Part shown: piece by piece, positions 15,591 through 56,416 of the stretch
How the letters are laid out: each line of letters opens with the position of its first letter
How positions within the stretch are numbered: position 1 is the first letter of the stretch
Source of the DNA: Candidatus Doudnabacteria bacterium RIFCSPHIGHO2_12_FULL_48_16
Lineage (GTDB): Bacteria; Patescibacteriota; Doudnabacteria; UBA920; O2-02-FULL-48-8
Assembly (NCBI GenBank): GCA_001780035.1
Contig: MFEY01000007.1
Location: 331,146-395,145 of the forward strand
Direction of reading: 5' to 3'
Length of the DNA: 64,000 nt
Notes under the pieces: generated by a model
Seen by the model: only the letters and a program-made list of their open reading frames with translations
Database searches by the model: none
Told to the model about the DNA's origin: nothing
Program-made: the position numbers and the translations under genes

Positions 15591-18170
15591 TTATTTGGCG
15601 ACATTGATTGATATGCTGTTTTGAATTGTCCCCTGGCCGGGCACATGGGCAAATGCCGAGAGCCGGTGGGCACCGTTATCAATATGCGGAATGGTGAAAC
15701 TAAAGGGCGAATTATTTTTGGTTCCAATCTGCTGATCATCCAGATAAAGTTCGACTGACGTCGGTACGAACCCCGTAACGTCAACCTGCACGGTCAGCGG
15801 CAGCTTATTGATGATCTGATTATTGACCGGCGCGACAAAGCTCACCAGCTTGTCATTGCTGCCCGGCGTTCCATCCAAGCCGCCGCTCCCGGCTGACCCA
15901 TCATCCTCTTCAGTCGGCGGGTAGGCAAAGCCGGCGGCCAGGGCCCAAGCCCGAACCGGGTTTTCCCAGTTGGGATTATTGGGCATTTCCGAATGCAGCA
16001 CGGTGTAGACCCGGTTTTCCAGCGCATCCGGCGGGGTCAGGCTGGAGGCTTTTAAGCCGTTGTATTTGTTGATGGCCACGGAGATGTGGACGTCGTCGAA
16101 ATCTTTGGGCAGGGCGAAGCTGGCAAAAACTTCGCTCTTGGTCGACGGGGTCAATTCGGTCGGCAATTTACCGGAAATAGCATCCACCACCACGCGCTGG
16201 ATGCCCGGCGGCTCAGCAAAGGTTTCCGCCGGCGTTCCTTTGAGCGCATTGAGCATAAACTGACGCCAGATCGGAGCGGCCACGATGACGCCGTCCGCAC
16301 CGCGGCGCATGACGGAAGAATCGTTGTTGCCCACCCAGACGCCGGCTACCAGCGAGGGAGTAAAGCCCAGGGCCCAGCCGTCCTTCCATTCTTGGGTCGT
16401 GCCGGTTTTGGCGGCCACCACCCGACCGGGCAAAGTTAACGGCGAGTTGGGCCCGAAGACAAATGCGCGCGCGTCGTTGTCAGTCATGACGCTGTCAACT
16501 TCGTAGGCGACTTGGGGGTCAATCACTTCGCGGCCCTCGCCCGGCTTGTATTCTTCCAAGACGTTGCCCTGGCCGTCCTCCACTTTCAGAATCGGTGTTG
16601 CCTCGTGCCGGATTCCCATATTGGCAAAGACCCCCATGGCTGAGACGTGGTCCAACAGTTTAAGTTCACAGCCGCCCAAAACCAGGGCCAAGCCACAGCG
16701 ATCGGCGCTGATGTCCGAGGTAATGCCCATGTCTTTGGCCGTATCAATGGCATTTTGGACGCCGACCAGGGCCAGGGTTTTAACCGCCGGGATGTTTAAC
16801 GATCCGGCAAACCCTTTGCGGATATTCACGATCCCGTGGTTGGCGCCGTCATAATTGCCCGGGGCGTATTCCTTGCCGCCGTAGGTGCCAAACACGGTTC
16901 GCACATCCACCAGCATCGTAGCCGGGCTCAATCCCTGTTTGAAGGCGGTGGCGTAAATGTAAGGTTTGATTGAGGATCCGGGCTGGCGTTCGCGCAGGGC
17001 GACATTGACCTGGCCGTCGTGTTCATCGTCAAAATAATTGCGTGAGCCGACCATGGCCAGAATCTCGCCGGTCTTTGGATCAATTGCAACCAGCGAGGCA
17101 TTGGAGGCGTTGTTTCGTTTTTCATTGATGGTCACACCATCGGTAACCGCTTTTTCCGCTATTTGCTGCAGGTTCCAGTCCAGCGAGGTCGTAACTTTGA
17201 GGCCGCCCACTTCCAAAGTTTGTTCGCCGTATTTTTCCGCCAGCAAGCTTTCCACGTAGAGCACGAAGTGCGGGGCCAGGATCGCGTCGCGGACTTTGTT
17301 GAAGGTCACTTTTTCCGCCTTGGCGGTCTCTGCCTGATCATGAGTGATGTATCCTTGCTCGGCCATTTGATCGAGCACGTAATTTTTTCGGCCATCGAGC
17401 CGGTCGCGGTTCGGCCCGCTCGGGTTATAAAAACTTGGCGCCTGGGGCAGGGCCGCGACATAAGCGGATTCGGCCAGGGTCAGATCGTGGGCGTGTTTGT
17501 CGAAGTAAGTCTGTGCGGCCGCTTCGATCCCGTAGGCATTCTGGCCGTAAGGAATTTCGTTTAAATAAAAACCGAGAATCTGGTCTTTGGAATAGCGCTG
17601 ATCCAGTTCGACGGCCAATACAATCTCTTTGATTTTCCTGACCCAGGTTTTTTCCCGCGTCAGAATGGCGTTGCGCACAAATTGCTGGGTGATGGTGGAG
17701 CCGCCCTGGCTGAGACTGCCGGAGGTTAAATCCACCCAAATCGAACGAAGAATTCCGGTCCAGCTGACCCCGGAGTTTTTATAAAAATTTTTATCCTCGA
17801 TTGCGATCGCGGCCTGCTTGGCATAATCGGGAATCTCGCTTAAGTCAATCAAAGTCCGCTTGGCCTCGCCATGAACTTCATACAACAGCGTCGTGCCGTC
17901 GCGGGCGTAAATTTTGGTCGATTGGGGAATCAGCCGCGTATCCAGTTTGGCCGGGTCAGGCAGGGTCAGGGCGATGACGGTAAACGAGACGCTGACAAAG
18001 AGCAGGCAGAACCCGCCGAAGTAAAGGACGAACCGGGTGATTTTTTGGCGATAAGCCTTGTCGCTGCGGAATCGTTCCACGAACCGGCGCGGCCAGGCGG
18101 TGGCCAAACCCCAGATTTTTTTGATCGAAAATTTGCGGTGTTTGTTCCAATTGGATTGGATGTAAGCCAT
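15591..18170 (-). CDS. class A penicillin-binding protein (glycosyltransferase + transpeptidase)
   Basis: 859 aa; GT51 motifs IEDKNFY, GGSTITQQ; transpeptidase SSIKP and KTGTT; extra C-terminal beta-rich domain. Confidence 0.92.
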   Translation of the reverse strand: MAYIQSNWNKHRKFSIKKIWGLATAWPRRFVERFRSDKAYRQKITRFVLYFGGFCLLFVSVSFTVIALTLPDPAKLDTRLIPQSTKIYARDGTTLLYEVHGEAKRTLIDLSEIPDYAKQAAIAIEDKNFYKNSGVSWTGILRSIWVDLTSGSLSQGGSTITQQFVRNAILTREKTWVRKIKEIVLAVELDQRYSKDQILGFYLNEIPYGQNAYGIEAAAQTYFDKHAHDLTLAESAYVAALPQAPSFYNPSGPNRDRLDGRKNYVLDQMAEQGYITHDQAETAKAEKVTFNKVRDAILAPHFVLYVESLLAEKYGEQTLEVGGLKVTTSLDWNLQQIAEKAVTDGVTINEKRNNASNASLVAIDPKTGEILAMVGSRNYFDDEHDGQVNVALRERQPGSSIKPYIYATAFKQGLSPATMLVDVRTVFGTYGGKEYAPGNYDGANHGIVNIRKGFAGSLNIPAVKTLALVGVQNAIDTAKDMGITSDISADRCGLALVLGGCELKLLDHVSAMGVFANMGIRHEATPILKVEDGQGNVLEEYKPGEGREVIDPQVAYEVDSVMTDNDARAFVFGPNSPLTLPGRVVAAKTGTTQEWKDGWALGFTPSLVAGVWVGNNDSSVMRRGADGVIVAAPIWRQFMLNALKGTPAETFAEPPGIQRVVVDAISGKLPTELTPSTKSEVFASFALPKDFDDVHISVAINKYNGLKASSLTPPDALENRVYTVLHSEMPNNPNWENPVRAWALAAGFAYPPTEEDDGSAGSGGLDGTPGSNDKLVSFVAPVNNQIINKLPLTVQVDVTGFVPTSVELYLDDQQIGTKNNSPFSFTIPHIDNGAHRLSAFAHVPGQGTIQNSISINVAK

Positions 18171-18210: not shown

Positions 18211-19362
18211 ATGAATGAATTACTCACCCGCTCGATTTCCGAAATTATTGACCGGAAGCATTTGGAAGATAATTTGAATTCCGGCCAAAAACTCCGGGTA
18301 AAATTGGGCATTGATCCCACGGCCGCCAAGCTTCATTTGGGTCACGCCGTCGTGCTGCGGATTTTGCGGCGTTTTCAAGACGAAGGACACACGGCGGTCT
18401 TAATCATTGGCGACACCACCGCGTCCATCGGTGACCCCTCGGGGAAAAACGAAACGCGGCCGGCGCTTACTGCCGAACAAATTGCCAAAAATTTTGCTAC
18501 GTATGAAAAACAAGCCTTGAGGATTTTGGACAAGTCTCGGCTGGAAGTCCGCTGGCAATCCGAGTGGTTCAAAAATTTCAATCTTAGCGATGTGATCAGG
18601 GAAGCAGCCCAACTTTCCGCCGGTTGGATTCTTTCCCACGAAACTTTCCGCAATCGTTTGCAGCACGGTCAGCCCTTGGCTTTTCATGAATTATTGTATC
18701 CGTTGGTCCAGGCCTATGACTCGGTGGCGGTGCAGGCGAATGTCGAACTGGGCGGGCCGGATCAAAAATTTAATTTGTTAACCGGTCGGGAGCTGATGCG
18801 GTCACACAAAATGGAGCCCCAAGACATTGTCTTGGGGAAATATTTGATCGGTACCGATGGTCAGAAGATGGGGAAAACCACCGGTAATTTTATCGCTCTG
18901 GAAGAAGAGCCATTTGAAATGTTTGGTAAAGTTATGGCCTTGGTGGACGAGGTTGTGATTGATTATTTTGAGAACGCGACCACTGTGCCGGTGGATGAAA
19001 TTAAAACAATTGAAAAAGAACTGAAAAAAGGGACCAATCCCCGTGACATTAAAAAACGGCTGGCGGCGGAGATTGTTACTTTGTATCATGGCGAGCAGGC
19101 CGCCAGTGTAGCCTCGGATGAATGGCAGAAAGTTTTTAGCAACAAAGAAAAACCCACGGAGATTGAAGAGGTCAAGGTGAAATCAGAAAATATAGTTGAT
19201 GTTCTTGTTGAAACAAAACTAGCCTCAAGCAAAAGCGAGGCCAAGAGATTGATTGAGCAGGATGGTGTAAGGATTGATGATCAGATTGCTTCCGAGGAAT
19301 CAGACACAAGTTCTGGTAATTTAATTCAAGTTGGAAAAAGAAGGTTTATAAAAATTAAGTAA
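18211..19362 (+). CDS. tyrS: tyrosine--tRNA ligase
   Basis: HLGH (HIGH) and KMGKT (KMSKS) motifs, C-terminal S4-like domain; start at MNELLTRS (M15 of tracked ORF). Confidence 0.9.
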   Translation: MNELLTRSISEIIDRKHLEDNLNSGQKLRVKLGIDPTAAKLHLGHAVVLRILRRFQDEGHTAVLIIGDTTASIGDPSGKNETRPALTAEQIAKNFATYEKQALRILDKSRLEVRWQSEWFKNFNLSDVIREAAQLSAGWILSHETFRNRLQHGQPLAFHELLYPLVQAYDSVAVQANVELGGPDQKFNLLTGRELMRSHKMEPQDIVLGKYLIGTDGQKMGKTTGNFIALEEEPFEMFGKVMALVDEVVIDYFENATTVPVDEIKTIEKELKKGTNPRDIKKRLAAEIVTLYHGEQAASVASDEWQKVFSNKEKPTEIEEVKVKSENIVDVLVETKLASSKSEAKRLIEQDGVRIDDQIASEESDTSSGNLIQVGKRRFIKIK

Positions 19363-19471
19363 TTACTCCCCCGTTGACTCTCTTCTGACGCACCCCCTCT
19401 TATATTAAGAGGGGGTTTTAGATTGCTTATTTACTCCTCCCCTTAGAATAAGGGGAGGGTGGGAGGGGTTA

Positions 19472-19500
19472 TTGACCTTGGGTCTTAAAACTGCTATCTT
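19472..19500 (+). promoter_or_regulatory. putative sigma70-type promoter of the GC-rich small ORF
   Basis: TTGACC (19472-77), 17-nt spacer, TATCTT (19495-500). Confidence 0.4.
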
Positions 19501-19562
19501 AATGAGCTTACTTGACCGGGCGAATCCGGTCCGTATGGCGACGAAAGGCAGCAGGGGGAAAA

Positions 19563-19826
19563 ATGAAGAACGCAGGAGCAAAGCGACAGACCGGTGGCGA
19601 GAGCGGAACCGATCGGCCATCGCGTCGCCGCACGCCGACCGAGCGCATGCCGACGCGGGAGCCGGGCACGGGCGGCGACGCGGATGACCAGGGCGGTCAG
19701 TCCGATCGCCCGGCGTGGGACACGCCGACCGACCGCTTGCCCACGAGCGACCCGCCGCCGGCCGATGAAGCGGATACGGCCGACGCGGCGCCCGATCGCG
19801 GACAGGCCACCACGGCGATCGCGTAG
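19563..19826 (+). CDS. hypothetical low-complexity Pro/Thr/Asp/Arg-rich protein (87 aa) in a very GC-rich patch
   Basis: SD GGGGG 4 nt before ATG 19563; internal repeat TPTERMPT / TPTDRLPT; strong terminator follows; every frame is open here, so coding status is uncertain. Confidence 0.35.
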   Translation: MKNAGAKRQTGGESGTDRPSRRRTPTERMPTREPGTGGDADDQGGQSDRPAWDTPTDRLPTSDPPPADEADTADAAPDRGQATTAIA

Positions 19827-19849
19827 AACGCGACGCGGACAACCAGATG

Positions 19850-19890
19850 GACCGGGTGTGCAGTGACAGTGCACATCCCGGTCTTTTTTT
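19850..19890 (+). terminator. strong intrinsic terminator
   Basis: GACCGGGTGTGCA-GTGACAG-TGCACATCCCGGTC followed by T7. Confidence 0.8.
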
Positions 19891-19891
19891 A

Positions 19892-19941
19892 TTCCGACCT
19901 CGACAAAGTCGAGCGTCGGAACTCCGACCGAAGCGTCGGAG
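19892..19941. repeat. two-hairpin TTCCGAC/GTCGGAA module (copy 1)
   Basis: TTCCGAC-CTCGAC-AAA-GTCGAG-C-GTCGGAA then CTCCGAC-CGAAGC-GTCGGAG; shares TTCCGACC, GCGTCGGAAC and (opposite strand) CCGACGCTTCGG with 32170-32304. Confidence 0.75.
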
Positions 19942-19946
19942 TTTTC

Positions 19947-20411
19947 TTATCGTCCGATTCCAGACCAGGCGATCGCGCACGCATCTGCGGCATCATCGGG
20001 TTTGGGAATTTTTTTCAGTTTCAAAAGTTTGACGATCATGGTCTGCACTTGTTTTTTGTCCGCCTTGCCATAGCCGGTCGTGGACATTTTGACTTGCAAC
20101 GGCGTGACTTCAATCATTTTGAGTCCGGCTTCAGCCAAAGTTACCATGACCATGCCCCGCGCCTGCCCGACGGTCATCGCGGTTTTGACATTGGTTTCGA
20201 AAAACAACGATTCGATGCAGGCGCTGTCCGGTTTTAATTTTTTGATTAAGGTGGTTAAATCTTTTTTGATTTCCAAAAGCCGGGCCGGCTCGGCCGTCCC
20301 CGCCTTGGTCGTGATACAGCCGCATTCCAGCAAAGAAGTTTCCTTGCCAGTATGTTTGAGGAATGCATAGCCGGTGCGCGCTATCCCTGGATCAATTCCT
20401 AGTATGATCAT
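19947..20411 (-). CDS. ruvC: crossover junction endodeoxyribonuclease RuvC
   Basis: 154 aa; MIILGIDPGIARTGYA start typical of RuvC. Confidence 0.92.
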   Translation of the reverse strand: MIILGIDPGIARTGYAFLKHTGKETSLLECGCITTKAGTAEPARLLEIKKDLTTLIKKLKPDSACIESLFFETNVKTAMTVGQARGMVMVTLAEAGLKMIEVTPLQVKMSTTGYGKADKKQVQTMIVKLLKLKKIPKPDDAADACAIAWSGIGR

Positions 20412-21124
20412 AAATTTACGTTACTATGAACCGCCACGACATCATCGTCTTCATTCAGCGCATCGAGTAGAGTTTGAATTTTGATAGCATCATCCAGAGC
20501 GACTTCCACTGATTGCTGCGGGCGCATAATAAGCTCGCTCGAAAGCGTTTTTATCCCCTTGGCCTCGATAAACTTTTTGGTTTTTTCCAGGTCCATCGGC
20601 AGAGTGTAAATTTCCAATCCTTCTGGCGTTTCTTTCACGTCTTCGACTCCTTGGTCAATCAATTCCAGAGGTAAATCCTCGGCGCCCTTCTGCTTCTCCA
20701 CCAGGATCTGGCCTTTGGACTCAAACATCCAAGCGACGCTGCCCTGCTCCCCCAGGCGGCCGTTATTTTTCGTAAAGATGTTGCGAACGCTTTGGAGTGT
20801 GCGATTGGTGTTATCAGTCACGGTTTCTACAATCAGGGCCGAGCCGGCGGGTCCATATCCTTCATAGGTAGCTTGCTGGATGCTTTCTTTGCCTTCGCCT
20901 TTGCCGCGCGCAATCGCGCGTTCCACATTTTCCTTGGGCATGCCGACTTCCTTGGCTTTATCCATGGCCATACGCAACTGAAAATTAAACGTCGGGTCAG
21001 CCCCGCCTCCGGTGCGCACCGCCACCGTGATGTTTTTGGCAATTTTAGTAAAAGCCTTGCCCTTGCGAGCATCCGTGATTGTCTTGGCCCGTTTGATTGT
21101 ATTCCATTTACTGTGTCCACTCAT
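20408..21124 (-). CDS. yebC: YebC/PmpR family DNA-binding regulator
   Basis: 238 aa; MSGHSKWNTIKRAK start is diagnostic of the family. Confidence 0.92.
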   Translation of the reverse strand: MSGHSKWNTIKRAKTITDARKGKAFTKIAKNITVAVRTGGGADPTFNFQLRMAMDKAKEVGMPKENVERAIARGKGEGKESIQQATYEGYGPAGSALIVETVTDNTNRTLQSVRNIFTKNNGRLGEQGSVAWMFESKGQILVEKQKGAEDLPLELIDQGVEDVKETPEGLEIYTLPMDLEKTKKFIEAKGIKTLSSELIMRPQQSVEVALDDAIKIQTLLDALNEDDDVVAVHSNVNL

Positions 21125-21129
21125 AAAAA

Positions 21130-21876
21130 TTATTTTATAATCTTATCATACGGCTCCGCTTGTTTCCAAGCAAACTCAAATAATGTCCGAAGCGACTGAT
21201 GAATGGTTTTGCTTTGAATTAATACAGCAAAAATATGCGGTTGATAGGAAAAAAACACCACGTTGCCATCGAATAAGCAATTATCTGTGAGAAATTCTTC
21301 TCCGGGTTTGGTAAATCGTTGTTGGTAATATTCAGTATGAGTTACATTTTCCGCGAATTTGAGGTCCGCGGGATTTTGAGTCAAAATCTCCAAGACTTTA
21401 GTTTTTTTGGCCAGTGTGTTGGCAACTAACTTTTTTTCATAATCCGGATAGATGGTGACAAAATCTCGGATAGTGCCGAAAAAAATAACCTCTTTGGCAT
21501 TTAAAATTTTATCATATAAATCTTTTATCGCTTCTTTGCCTTCAAACAATAAAACCTGTGGTTTATTTTTTGGTTCATTATAGACGGCCAGTAGGTTAGG
21601 CATGAACCTTTTGACTAGCTCTTGTTTGCGATTCAGATCCGAGAGGATTTTGTCCGGCGACTCTGGCATGTATAAAATCTTCTTCGCTCGCGGTACTAGA
21701 GCGGCCAATCCCTTCTTCTGTAGCTCGTCGAGGATCAGATAAGTCGTGGGGCGCTTAGTCCCCGCTTTCTTGGCGATCCCTTCAACTGAAGAGGTACCCA
21801 ATTCCAATAAAGCCATATAGACCATGGCTTCTTTTTGGTTTAATCCGATTTTCTCCAGTATTTCTGCGATTTCCAT
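21130..21876 (-). CDS. TrmB-like winged-helix transcriptional regulator (paralog 3)
   Basis: QKEAMVYMALLELGTSSVEGIAKKAGTKRPTTYLILDELQKKGL wHTH; C-terminal LFEFAWKQ; divergent from ABC operon. Confidence 0.72.
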   Translation of the reverse strand: MEIAEILEKIGLNQKEAMVYMALLELGTSSVEGIAKKAGTKRPTTYLILDELQKKGLAALVPRAKKILYMPESPDKILSDLNRKQELVKRFMPNLLAVYNEPKNKPQVLLFEGKEAIKDLYDKILNAKEVIFFGTIRDFVTIYPDYEKKLVANTLAKKTKVLEILTQNPADLKFAENVTHTEYYQQRFTKPGEEFLTDNCLFDGNVVFFSYQPHIFAVLIQSKTIHQSLRTLFEFAWKQAEPYDKIIK

Positions 21877-21899: not shown

Positions 21900-21936
21900 C
21901 CCCTCTCCTGACTAGGAGAGGGGCCGGGGGTGAGGT
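21900..21936 (-). repeat. REP-like element (CCCCTCTCC hairpin + GGTGAGGT tail), copy A
   Basis: its reverse complement matches 56380-56416 at 33 of 37 positions by hand alignment. Confidence 0.7.
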
Positions 21937-56379: not shown

Positions 56380-56416
56380 ACCTCACCCCTGGCCCCTCTC
56401 CTCGCCAGGAGAGGGG
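56380..56416 (+). repeat. REP-like element (copy B) in the infB 5' region
   Basis: ACCTCACCCCTGGCCCCTCTCCTCGCCAGGAGAGGGG; 33/37 identical to the reverse complement of 21900-21936. Confidence 0.7.

What the first reader, a model, noticed from the sequence alone, without database searches (positions are those of the whole stretch)
19470..19890. A roughly 75-80% GC micro-island with its own promoter, SD and terminator, encoding at most a low-complexity 87-aa protein
**Seen directly.**
- Hand counts of two 60-nt lines (19621-19680 and 19681-19740) give 50/60 and 44/60 G+C. Flanking tyrS and ruvC are about 45-50%.
- The patch is framed by hairpins after tyrS, a TTGACC-17-TATCTT promoter, an SD + ATG at 19563, and a very strong terminator at 19850-19890.
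- The plus-frame product is MKNAGAKRQTGGESGTDRPSRRRTPTERMPTREPGTGGDADDQGGQSDRPAWDTPTDRLPTSDPPPADEADTADAAPDRGQATTAIA. It contains an internal repeat, TPT(E/D)R(M/L)PT.
- Several frames on both strands are open, as expected for such high GC.

**Inference.** This is a foreign or fast-evolving insert. It could encode a disordered secreted or interaction peptide, or it could be a GC-rich non-coding RNA. I cannot decide which from the sequence alone.
Basis: partly seen in the sequence, partly recalled or inferred. Interest (0 to 1): 0.5.

Follow-up and report, generated by a model that had tools for sequence, protein, structure and literature searches.

The report
GC-rich orphan small-protein gene, variable slot
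The GC-rich patch is a real, self-contained little gene for an 87-residue, probably unstructured protein found only in a few uncultivated Doudnabacteria; it sits in a gap between two housekeeping genes that holds a different small unknown gene in almost every related lineage.

Summary
Positions 19590-19840 are 75.7% G+C in a 47.9% genome, and this is the strongest GC peak in the 64 kb. The promoter, Shine-Dalgarno site, ATG at 19563, internal repeat and terminator are all present. The patch is identical in more than 20 independent assemblies, so it is not an artefact.

The window comes from a Candidatus Doudnabacteria (CPR) genome. No Rfam family matches, and the 87-aa product has no homologue among billions of proteins.

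One other Doudnabacteria lineage (L076) has the same cassette at the same tyrS-ruvC position:
- The -10 box, leader hairpin, SD and ATG are 91% identical, although silent sites in tyrS are saturated.
- The stop codon and terminator are conserved.
- An in-frame ADEADTA block differs only by synonymous changes.
- The spacing differences between conserved blocks are 81 and 69 nt, both multiples of 3.

The L076 ORF (137 aa, GC3 0.93) is clearly coding.

Best reading: a fast-evolving orphan small-protein gene, here reduced to a disordered acidic protein, in a recombination-prone variable slot whose genes are all GC-enriched. The ncRNA reading is not supported. A foreign origin is unproven because no donor was found. 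Function is unknown. Interest is moderate.

The parts
19392..19416 (+). First hairpin after tyrS (CCCCCTCTTA-loop-TAAGAGGGGG followed by TTTT). It is probably the tyrS terminator.
   Evidence: Terminator scan. Folds at -18.4 kcal/mol, z = -5.0. A 98% identical copy follows a tyrS that is only 72% identical in L089.
19432..19461 (+). Second C-rich/G-rich hairpin, lying between tyrS and the cassette promoter.
   Evidence: Folds at -19.3 kcal/mol. The same hairpin type occurs at 21900 and 56393.
19472..19500 (+). Sigma-70-type promoter: -35 TTGACC, 17-nt spacer, TG-extended -10 TATCTT.
   Evidence: Promoter scan. The TATCTT -10 box is identical in L076 and L008.
19492..19570 (+). Conserved 5' block: -10 box, transcription start region, leader, SD and the first codons (ATG AAG AA).
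   Evidence: 91% identical over 79 nt to L076 3704-3781. By contrast, tyrS four-fold sites are only 37% identical.
19514..19531 (+). Leader hairpin, which is also a DNA palindrome: GACCGG-N6-CCGGTC.
   Evidence: The fold centroid keeps this stem. L076 has the same stem with a different loop. L008 has TGCCGGC-N6-GCCGGCA at the same place, which is a compensatory change.
19553..19558 (+). Shine-Dalgarno sequence AGGGGG, 4 nt before the ATG.
   Evidence: Read directly from the sequence. Conserved in L076.
19563..19826 (+). 87-aa ORF (P0001) for an acidic, Ala/Thr/Asp/Pro/Gly/Arg-rich product predicted to be disordered. It is annotated in GenBank as a hypothetical protein.
   Evidence: Five of six gene-call sets called this ORF.
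19631..19685 (+). Internal direct repeat, copy 1 (TPTERMPTREPGTGGDAD).
   Evidence: the repeat finder family D1; translation.
19721..19775 (+). Internal direct repeat, copy 2 (TPTDRLPTSDPPPADEAD). It is 90 nt (30 codons) downstream of copy 1.
19748..19781 (+). In-frame block conserved with L076a. It encodes ADEADTA, and the only differences are three synonymous third-position changes.
   Evidence: blastn block, same frame in both loci; codons read.
19804..19828 (+). Conserved ORF end and stop codon: ..TTAIA* here against ..DTAVV* in L076.
19849..19891 (+). Intrinsic terminator of the cassette: a 14-bp stem followed by T7.
   Evidence: L076 has a homologous terminator with the same inner stem (GTGTGCA/TGCAC) and a covarying outer stem.
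19895..19944 (+). Two further stable hairpins between the cassette terminator and the ruvC stop codon.
   Evidence: Fold at -29 kcal/mol together, z = -4.95.

Best explanation
The island is a monocistronic gene for a lineage-restricted (orphan) small protein. It lies in the gap between the convergent genes tyrS and ruvC of a Candidatus Doudnabacteria genome.

**Shown**
- It has its own extended -10 promoter, a 5' leader hairpin, an SD and ATG, and a strong intrinsic terminator.
- These signals, the start and stop codons and the reading frame are conserved in a second Doudnabacteria lineage (L076).
- The L076 ORF shows an unmistakable coding signature.
- The interior changes at least as fast as silent sites.
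- The gap is a mosaic, recombination-prone slot. Almost every related lineage holds a different small orphan gene there, and all of them are GC-enriched.

**Inferred**
- The window's version has lost the four-helix N-terminal domain seen in L076a.
- What remains is an 87-residue acidic, intrinsically disordered protein. It carries five [T/S/P][D/E]R motifs, a conserved ADEADTA motif and a conserved non-polar C-terminal tail (TAIA/TAVV).
- It most likely acts, if at all, by binding partners through these short motifs.
- The extreme GC reflects a locus-specific push towards G+C. In L076a that push is confined to third codon positions by protein constraint. Here it has spread to all three positions because the protein sequence is barely constrained. 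High GC in turn yields a disordered, low-complexity product.
For: **A real feature**
- Identical in more than 20 contigs from independent assemblies.

**Signals present**
-.

**Orthology with L076**
- 79-nt 5' block is 91% identical.
- ADEADTA block is 76% identical, in the same frame, with 3 synonymous and 0 non-synonymous changes in 7 codons.
- ORF end plus terminator is 70% identical, and the outer stem of the terminator covaries.
- Spacing differences are 81 and 69 nt.
- For comparison, tyrS is 69% identical at nucleotide level, with four-fold sites at 37%.

**L076a is coding**
- GC1/2/3 = 0.65/0.50/0.93, periodicity p < 5e-5.
- It contains a four-helix domain with pLDDT 71-85.

**Sense strand**
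- A greatly exceeds T on the + strand in both loci.

**Disorder**
-.

**Orphan status**
-.

**Slot variability and GC enrichment**
- Of 10 loci with the tyrS-ruvC arrangement, 8 have inserts.
- All 11 plus-strand slot ORFs have GC3 above both flanking genes.

**Mosaicism**
- Between the window and L076, RuvC is 86% identical but TyrS only 74%.
- In L089, tyrS is about 90-100% like L076, then the post-tyrS hairpins are 98% like the window.
Against: - Within the window itself the coding signal is not significant. GC1/2/3 is 0.72/0.69/0.81 (periodicity p = 0.18). A frame of this composition stays open by chance with P = 0.33.
- Protein-level similarity to L076a is marginal (shuffle p = 0.035, uncorrected).
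- Only one clear orthologue exists, and there are no polymorphisms within the species, so selection on the protein cannot be measured.
- The most conserved part is the non-coding leader, not the protein.
- No expression data were available.
- The cause of the high GC is not demonstrated.
Confidence: 0.62

Rival explanations
1. The unit is a decaying remnant. An L076a-like gene lost its folded domain through deletions and an internal duplication. The remaining ORF is open only because GC-rich DNA has few stop codons. It is still transcribed from an intact promoter, but the product has no function.
For: - The window ORF has no significant codon periodicity, and P(open by chance) = 0.33.
- The helical domain of L076a and L008a is missing.
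- The product has no predicted structure.
- The interior cannot be aligned.
Against: - Promoter, SD, ATG, stop codon and terminator are all intact, and the 5' block is 91% conserved.
- Both spacing differences relative to L076 are multiples of 3, and the ADEADTA block shows only synonymous changes.
- The sequence is invariant across many samples, even in a strain with a recombinant tract nearby.
Confidence: 0.2
2. The functional product is an RNA. This would be a transcript of about 385 nt (or its conserved 5' leader) acting as a regulatory RNA, with the GC-rich interior a structured or merely tolerated body and the ORF incidental.
For: - The strongest conservation lies in the non-coding 5' leader and the terminator, not in the ORF interior.
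- The leader hairpin is kept through compensatory changes in L008.
- Folding is slightly more stable than in shuffles (z = -2.1).
Against: - No Rfam family matches, even at E <= 10.
- The interior is not conserved, so it has no conserved structure.
- The conserved block includes an SD and ATG at the correct spacing, and the stop codon is conserved.
- The orthologue's interior shows strong three-base periodicity (GC3 0.93) and encodes a confidently helical domain.
- The z-score is weak and is larger on the opposite strand.
Confidence: 0.1
3. The ORF is a recent capture from a high-GC donor, such as an actinobacterial host or its phage. It was inserted between tyrS and ruvC and has not yet ameliorated.
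For: - G+C is 26 points above the genome, and L076a has GC3 0.93, typical of a genome of about 70% G+C.
- Relatives show presence/absence (L007 and L090 have empty gaps).
- The locus is mosaic, which shows that DNA is exchanged here.
Against: - No donor or homologue was found in 5.8 billion protein clusters, 1.84 billion representatives, phage genomes, plasmids or viral contigs.
- There are no mobility genes, tRNA or flanking direct repeats.
- The high-GC zone starts a few codons after the ATG and ends at the stop. It sits inside native-looking, conserved regulatory flanks.
- The window ORF uses GAT as often as GAC, which is not high-GC codon usage.
- All unrelated slot genes in relatives are also GC-enriched, which points to a property of the locus.
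Confidence: 0.15

Closest known systems
Species- or lineage-specific orphan genes of prokaryotes (taxonomically restricted small ORFs; e.g. the survey in PMC11293555)
   Same: The ORF is short and the product is predicted to be more disordered than conserved proteins. It has no homologues outside a narrow lineage and no viral match, and it lies between conserved core genes.
   Different: That survey reports that orphan GC content closely tracks the genome's (PMC11293555). Here the ORF is 26 points above the genome. The regulatory flanks are also far better conserved than the protein.
High-GC orphan or de novo proteins being intrinsically disordered (PMC5389847)
   Same: A GC-rich ORF encodes an Ala/Pro/Gly/Arg/Asp/Thr-rich protein with no predicted structure.
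   Different: That relationship was described genome-wide, mostly in eukaryotes. Here the high GC is confined to a single 260-nt ORF in a genome of moderate GC. The gene also has an orthologue with a folded domain, so it did not simply arise from non-coding DNA.
Type II antitoxins (folded N-terminal DNA-binding domain, disordered C-terminal tail, palindromic operator at the promoter, unstable protein)
   Same: - L076a has a small basic helical domain plus an acidic disordered tail.
- The leader carries an 18-bp palindrome just after the promoter.
- In L008 and L073 the slot holds two overlapping small genes.
- The C-terminal tail is non-polar and conserved.
   Different: - The window has no second gene and no helical domain.
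- No Pfam, NCBI-style, PADLOC or PHROG toxin or antitoxin family matches any slot protein.
- No structural match was found for the L076a domain.
- This is a resemblance in architecture only.
Flexible genomic islets or hypervariable slots between conserved core genes
   Same: The same chromosomal position (PBP1A-tyrS | slot | ruvC-yebC) carries different accessory content in each lineage. Recombination breakpoints lie at its edges.
   Different: The slot is very small (0.3-1.7 kb) and holds only tiny orphan ORFs. It has no integrase or mobility genes, and its genes are GC-enriched, whereas acquired islets are usually AT-enriched.

Membership tests
Any Rfam non-coding RNA family | Match to a covariance model at or near the gathering score | tested here: not met
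   The best hits in 18800-20500 have E of 0.3 or worse and scores far below gathering. They are miRNA or sRNA models that land on the terminators. Across the whole window only tRNAs pass.
Protein-coding gene (general) | Start and stop codons and reading frame conserved in an orthologue; indels in multiples of 3 | tested here: met
   The ATG context and the TAG position are conserved with L076. The three colinear blocks keep the frame, and the length differences are 81 and 69 nt.
Protein-coding gene (general) | Codon-position periodicity in the ORF itself | tested here: inconclusive
   Window ORF p = 0.18; orthologue L076a p < 5e-5.
Protein-coding gene (general) | Evidence of transcription and translation | not testable with these tools
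   No RNA-seq, Ribo-seq or proteomics data were available.
Orphan / taxonomically restricted gene | No detectable homologue outside a narrow lineage | tested here: met
   Only self-hits were found for P0001 and P0122. phmmer against 1.84 billion representatives returned only a low-complexity repeat protein. There were no hits in Pfam, PADLOC or PHROGs.
De novo gene (born from non-coding DNA) | A homologous non-genic sequence at the syntenic site in outgroups | tested here: not met
   The outgroup gaps (L007, L090) are only 87-120 nt and show no similarity to the island. The orthologue L076a has a folded domain.
Horizontally acquired islet | Atypical composition together with an identifiable donor or mobility signature | tested here: not met
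   The composition is atypical. However, no donor was found, and there are no integrase, tRNA or flanking direct repeats.
Type II toxin-antitoxin module | Two adjacent small genes with recognisable toxin or antitoxin domains | tested here: not met
   The window has a single gene, and there are no Pfam or PADLOC hits.
Diversity-generating retroelement target (VR/TR) | Repeat pair differing at adenines of the template; reverse transcriptase nearby | tested here: not met
   Only 2 of the 14 differences between the internal repeat copies fall at an adenine of copy 1, so they are not adenine-specific. No second copy of the island or leader exists in the window. No reverse transcriptase ORF was seen near the locus.

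The most novel reading that the evidence does not exclude
The tyrS-ruvC gap of this Doudnabacteria clade could be a dedicated hypervariable locus for small proteins.
- Cassettes have conserved regulatory ends. There are two promoter/leader types, A and B.
- The coding interiors are swapped by recombination between divergent lineages and diverge faster than silent sites.
- A locus-specific GC-driving process, for example GC-biased gene conversion at a recombination hotspot, pushes the ORFs towards G+C and so towards disordered, motif-based proteins.

Such a locus would work as a contingency or 'nursery' site for host- or phage-interaction proteins in an episymbiotic bacterium.
Probability: 0.2. 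Interest if true: 0.6.

Novelty: new member of a known kind. Interest (0 to 1): 0.35.

Why it matters
As it stands this is one more uncharacterised orphan small gene, already deposited as a hypothetical protein.

It is slightly more than routine for three reasons:
- It runs against the usual rule that prokaryotic orphan and acquired genes match or fall below the genome's GC.
- Its regulatory flanks are much better conserved than its protein.
- The whole tyrS-ruvC slot in this CPR clade carries GC-enriched, unrelated small proteins and shows recombination mosaicism.

If the slot-wide pattern holds up, it would offer a compact natural case for studying two questions. One is how local base-composition pressure turns a folded small protein into a disordered one. 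The other is how episymbiotic CPR bacteria turn over small accessory proteins.

Tried and rejected
**RNA families**
- Rfam at permissive E-values on the locus and at gathering threshold on the whole window gave nothing but tRNAs.
- No tmRNA was found.

**Searches for homologues of the proteins**
- Homologues of the 87-aa protein and of its orthologue L076a: only self-hits.
- Exhaustive phmmer: only a low-complexity giant repeat protein, P0123.
- Pfam, PADLOC and PHROGs for ten slot proteins: nothing below E = 0.06.
- Foldseek of the L076a model against the PDB: no hit with E < 0.6.

**Searches for a donor or further copies**
- blastn of the island against phages and plasmids: one 52-nt chance hit in a Streptomyces dnaE.
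- tblastn of L076a against phages and plasmids, and a viral-contig scan: nothing.
- Leader-pattern scan of metagenome contigs: one unrelated promoter-like hit, L077. The same scan of viral contigs gave 11 chance hits in high-GC phage genes and a tRNA.
- A second copy of the leader or island in the window or in other fetched loci: none except L076.

**Alternative frames and population data**
- I tested whether another frame of the island encodes the helical domain of L076a or L008a, as a frameshifted pseudogene would. No support.
- The minus-strand 191-aa and 126-aa ORFs are Arg-rich, run through the hairpins and terminators, and were called by only one pipeline. I treat them as by-products of high GC.
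- No population polymorphism is available for a selection test. The island has zero differences in all near-identical contigs, and no TyrS relatives fall between 79% and 99% identity.
- Three contigs of relatives (L089, L093, L104) end just after tyrS, so those slots could not be read.

**Rejected explanations**
- DGR, T-box, RiPP precursor and assembly chimera do not fit the evidence.
- A Sec signal peptide was looked for only by reading the N-terminus, which shows no hydrophobic stretch.

Full report
**1. The observation**

- The two hand-counted lines are exactly 50/60 and 44/60 G+C.
- Positions 19590-19840 are 75.7% G+C, against 47.9% for the window.
- The best 100-nt window reaches 0.79, the maximum of the whole 64 kb. 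The next peak is 0.72, and the 99.9th percentile is 0.77 (profile).
- tyrS (18211-19362, +) is 46% and ruvC (19947-20411, -) is 50% G+C.
- The scan finds one promoter, TTGACC-17-TATCTT at 19472-19500, preceded by TG. It also finds terminator-like hairpins after tyrS and at the end of the island.
- The island's terminator folds at -24.4 kcal/mol (z = -5.3). The two post-tyrS hairpins fold at -18.4 and -19.3 kcal/mol.
- AGGGGG lies 4 nt before the ATG at 19563, and the 87-aa translation is as given.
- The internal repeat is 55 nt, 75% identical and 90 nt apart, which is in frame.

The patch is not an assembly artefact. It is 100% identical in contigs from NCBI, ENA, JGI and Logan assemblies of many samples.

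**2. Organism and context**

The window is from Candidatus Doudnabacteria bacterium RIFCSPLOWO2_02_FULL_49_13, a CPR/Patescibacteria genome. The local gene order is PBP1A (-), tyrS (+), the island (+), ruvC (-), yebC (-) and a TrmB-like regulator (-). The island therefore lies between the 3' ends of two convergent housekeeping genes.

**3. Not a known RNA and not a known protein**

- Rfam gives nothing near the gathering score.
- The 87-aa product (P0001, deposited as a hypothetical protein) finds only itself among 5.8 billion clusters.
- Exhaustive phmmer against 1.84 billion representatives adds only a 4917-aa low-complexity repeat protein.
- DNA and protein searches of phages, plasmids and viral contigs are empty or give chance hits.

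**4. Relatives**

No TyrS in the database falls between 99% and 79% identity to the window's, so there are no sister strains. The convergent tyrS-ruvC arrangement occurs in ten loci of the Doudnabacteria clade with TyrS of 74% identity or more.
- Two loci (L007, L090) have an empty gap of about 90-120 nt.
- Eight have inserts of 283-1737 nt.
- Each insert carries one or two small plus-strand ORFs with no Pfam, PADLOC or PHROG match.
- All 11 plus-strand slot ORFs have GC3 above both flanking genes. The window ORF (0.81 against 0.51 and 0.59) and L076a (0.93 against 0.52 and 0.53) are the extremes.

By promoter and leader sequence there are two cassette types.
- Type A (window, L076, and more weakly L008) has a TATCTT -10 box followed by a palindromic hairpin.
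- Type B (L073, L009, L075, L092) has GTTGTTTTT...TG-TAAAGT.

**5. The orthologue**

L076 (GCA_034680565.1) carries the same cassette at the same place. Three colinear blocks are conserved:

| Window block | Content | Identity to L076 |
|---|---|---|
| 19492-19570 | -10 box, leader hairpin, SD, ATG AAG AA | 91% |
| 19748-19781 | in-frame ADEADTA block | 76% |
| 19804-19893 | ORF end, TAG, terminator | 70% |

- The blocks are in the same frame relative to each ATG. The distances between them differ by 81 and 69 nt, both multiples of 3.
- In the ADEADTA block the seven shared codons differ by three third-position synonymous changes and no replacement.
- The terminators share the inner stem, and the outer stem covaries.
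- For scale, tyrS of the two genomes is 69% identical, with four-fold sites at 37%, which is saturated. ruvC is 80.5% identical.
- The leader is therefore conserved like first and second codon positions of a core gene, while the ORF interior cannot be aligned at all.

**6. Coding or not**

L076a (137 aa) is clearly coding.
- GC1/2/3 is 0.65/0.50/0.93, with periodicity p < 5e-5.
- A single-sequence AlphaFold model gives a four-helix domain (residues 12-76, pLDDT 71-85) followed by a disordered acidic tail.
- L008a resembles this domain (TAxLxxR...E..I, RF, DAxxIxxxACGxxA; shuffle p = 0.01).

The window ORF on its own is not demonstrably coding.
- Periodicity is p = 0.18, and a frame of this composition stays open by chance one time in three.
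- It has only 5 hydrophobic residues in 87. AlphaFold gives no secondary structure and pTM 0.12.
- No other frame of the island encodes the missing helical domain.
- The A-over-T excess on the + strand, in both loci, fits a sense strand of a GC-rich ORF.

Taken together, the conserved start, stop and frame and the coding orthologue favour a gene over an RNA. The window's version is a shortened, disordered derivative.

Its recognisable features are:
- five [T/S/P][D/E]R motifs, three of which account for the CGATCG excess (4 observed against 0.76 expected, P = 0.003);
- the ADEADTA motif;
- a non-polar C-terminus, TAIA, conserved as TAVV in L076a.

**7. The slot is mosaic**

- Between the window and L076, RuvC is 86% identical, the highest of all relatives. 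TyrS is 74%, which is not the highest.
- L089 has a tyrS that is 90-100% identical to L076 over most of its length and then diverges from both. Right after the stop codon its hairpin region is 98% identical to the window's, and the contig ends there.
- Within the window's own species, one strain (L003) carries a roughly 15% divergent tract at 21053-21688.

Recombination between divergent lineages therefore happens at and around this slot.

**8. Why so GC-rich**

This is not resolved.
- A foreign origin is possible, but no donor was found. The GC-rich zone coincides with the ORF inside native-looking, conserved flanks. The window ORF uses GAT as often as GAC. Unrelated slot genes are GC-enriched too.
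- I favour, as an inference only, a locus-level push towards G+C. In L076a it is visible at third positions only, where the protein is constrained. In the window it is visible at all three positions, where the protein is not.
- GC-biased gene conversion at a recombination hotspot would fit the mosaicism. The lack of any GC gradient into tyrS and ruvC argues against a simple version of that idea.
- The link from high GC to disorder is established for orphan proteins (PMC5389847). Prokaryotic orphans normally match their genome's GC (PMC11293555), so this locus is atypical.

**9. Verdict**

This is a real, self-contained, fast-evolving orphan small-protein gene in a variable, recombination-prone slot.
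- Its 'fast-evolving, disordered peptide' reading is supported.
- Its ncRNA alternative is not supported.
- Its 'foreign' reading is unproven.
- Function is unknown. The architecture of the orthologue is reminiscent of antitoxin-like autoregulators: a basic helical domain, an acidic tail, a palindrome at the promoter and, in two lineages, overlapping gene pairs. None of the membership tests for that family is met.

Interest is moderate.

Noticed in passing
window 21053-21688 (compared with L003, and 21053-21082 with L004): One strain of the same species (ERZ27254845) differs at about 100 positions, mostly third codon positions, inside the TrmB-like gene and the start of yebC. It is identical elsewhere. 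This looks like a recombination tract imported from a divergent lineage.
   Followed up: partly
window 19491/19492 (L003): The same strain has a 9-nt tandem duplication, TGCTATCTT, that duplicates the -10 box of the cassette promoter. This is a natural promoter variant.
   Followed up: no
L089 4183-4271; L093 3671-3727; L104 1545-1574: Three independent assemblies of related Doudnabacteria break within 30-90 nt after tyrS. This may be because the slot is strain-variable or because the repeated hairpins or high GC hinder assembly.
   Followed up: no
L008 5345-5826; L073 3799-4297: In two lineages the slot holds two small orphan ORFs that overlap by 4 and 8 nt (78+82 aa and 74+93 aa). This is the layout of a toxin-antitoxin-like pair, but no family matches either protein.
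   Followed up: partly
L074 3709-3948 and L092 1537-2088: Two slot proteins of different lineages share a clear N-terminal motif (M.LN....IIREE...ELE; shuffle p = 0.0005). In both it is followed by acidic or proline-rich disordered tails. This is a second orphan family in the same slot.
   Followed up: partly
window 19610, 19703, 19793, 19816 (also GCGATCGC at 17803, 19815, 19969): CGATCG occurs 4 times in the island, against 0.76 expected from dinucleotide-preserving shuffles (P = 0.003). Three of the four encode the Asp-Arg of the repeated [T/S/P]DR peptide motif.
   Followed up: partly
window 19394-19414, 19439-19455, 21900-21923, 56393-56416: C-rich/G-rich hairpins of the form CCCCT...AGGGG recur at gene ends, 4 against 0.64 expected. 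Similar ones follow tyrS in L073, L075 and L076. They look like the clade's standard terminator type.
   Followed up: no
L076 4337-5341: In L076 the cassette is followed by a second orphan gene of 334 aa with its own promoter. It has a hydrophobic N-terminal part and no family match.
   Followed up: no
L077 13547-13575: The only metagenome hit to the leader pattern is an unrelated TTGACC-16-TATAAT promoter whose spacer forms the same GACCGG...CCGGTC hairpin. In the window the same stretch reads TTGACC-16-TATGGC, so the leader hairpin could double as a weak second promoter.
   Followed up: no
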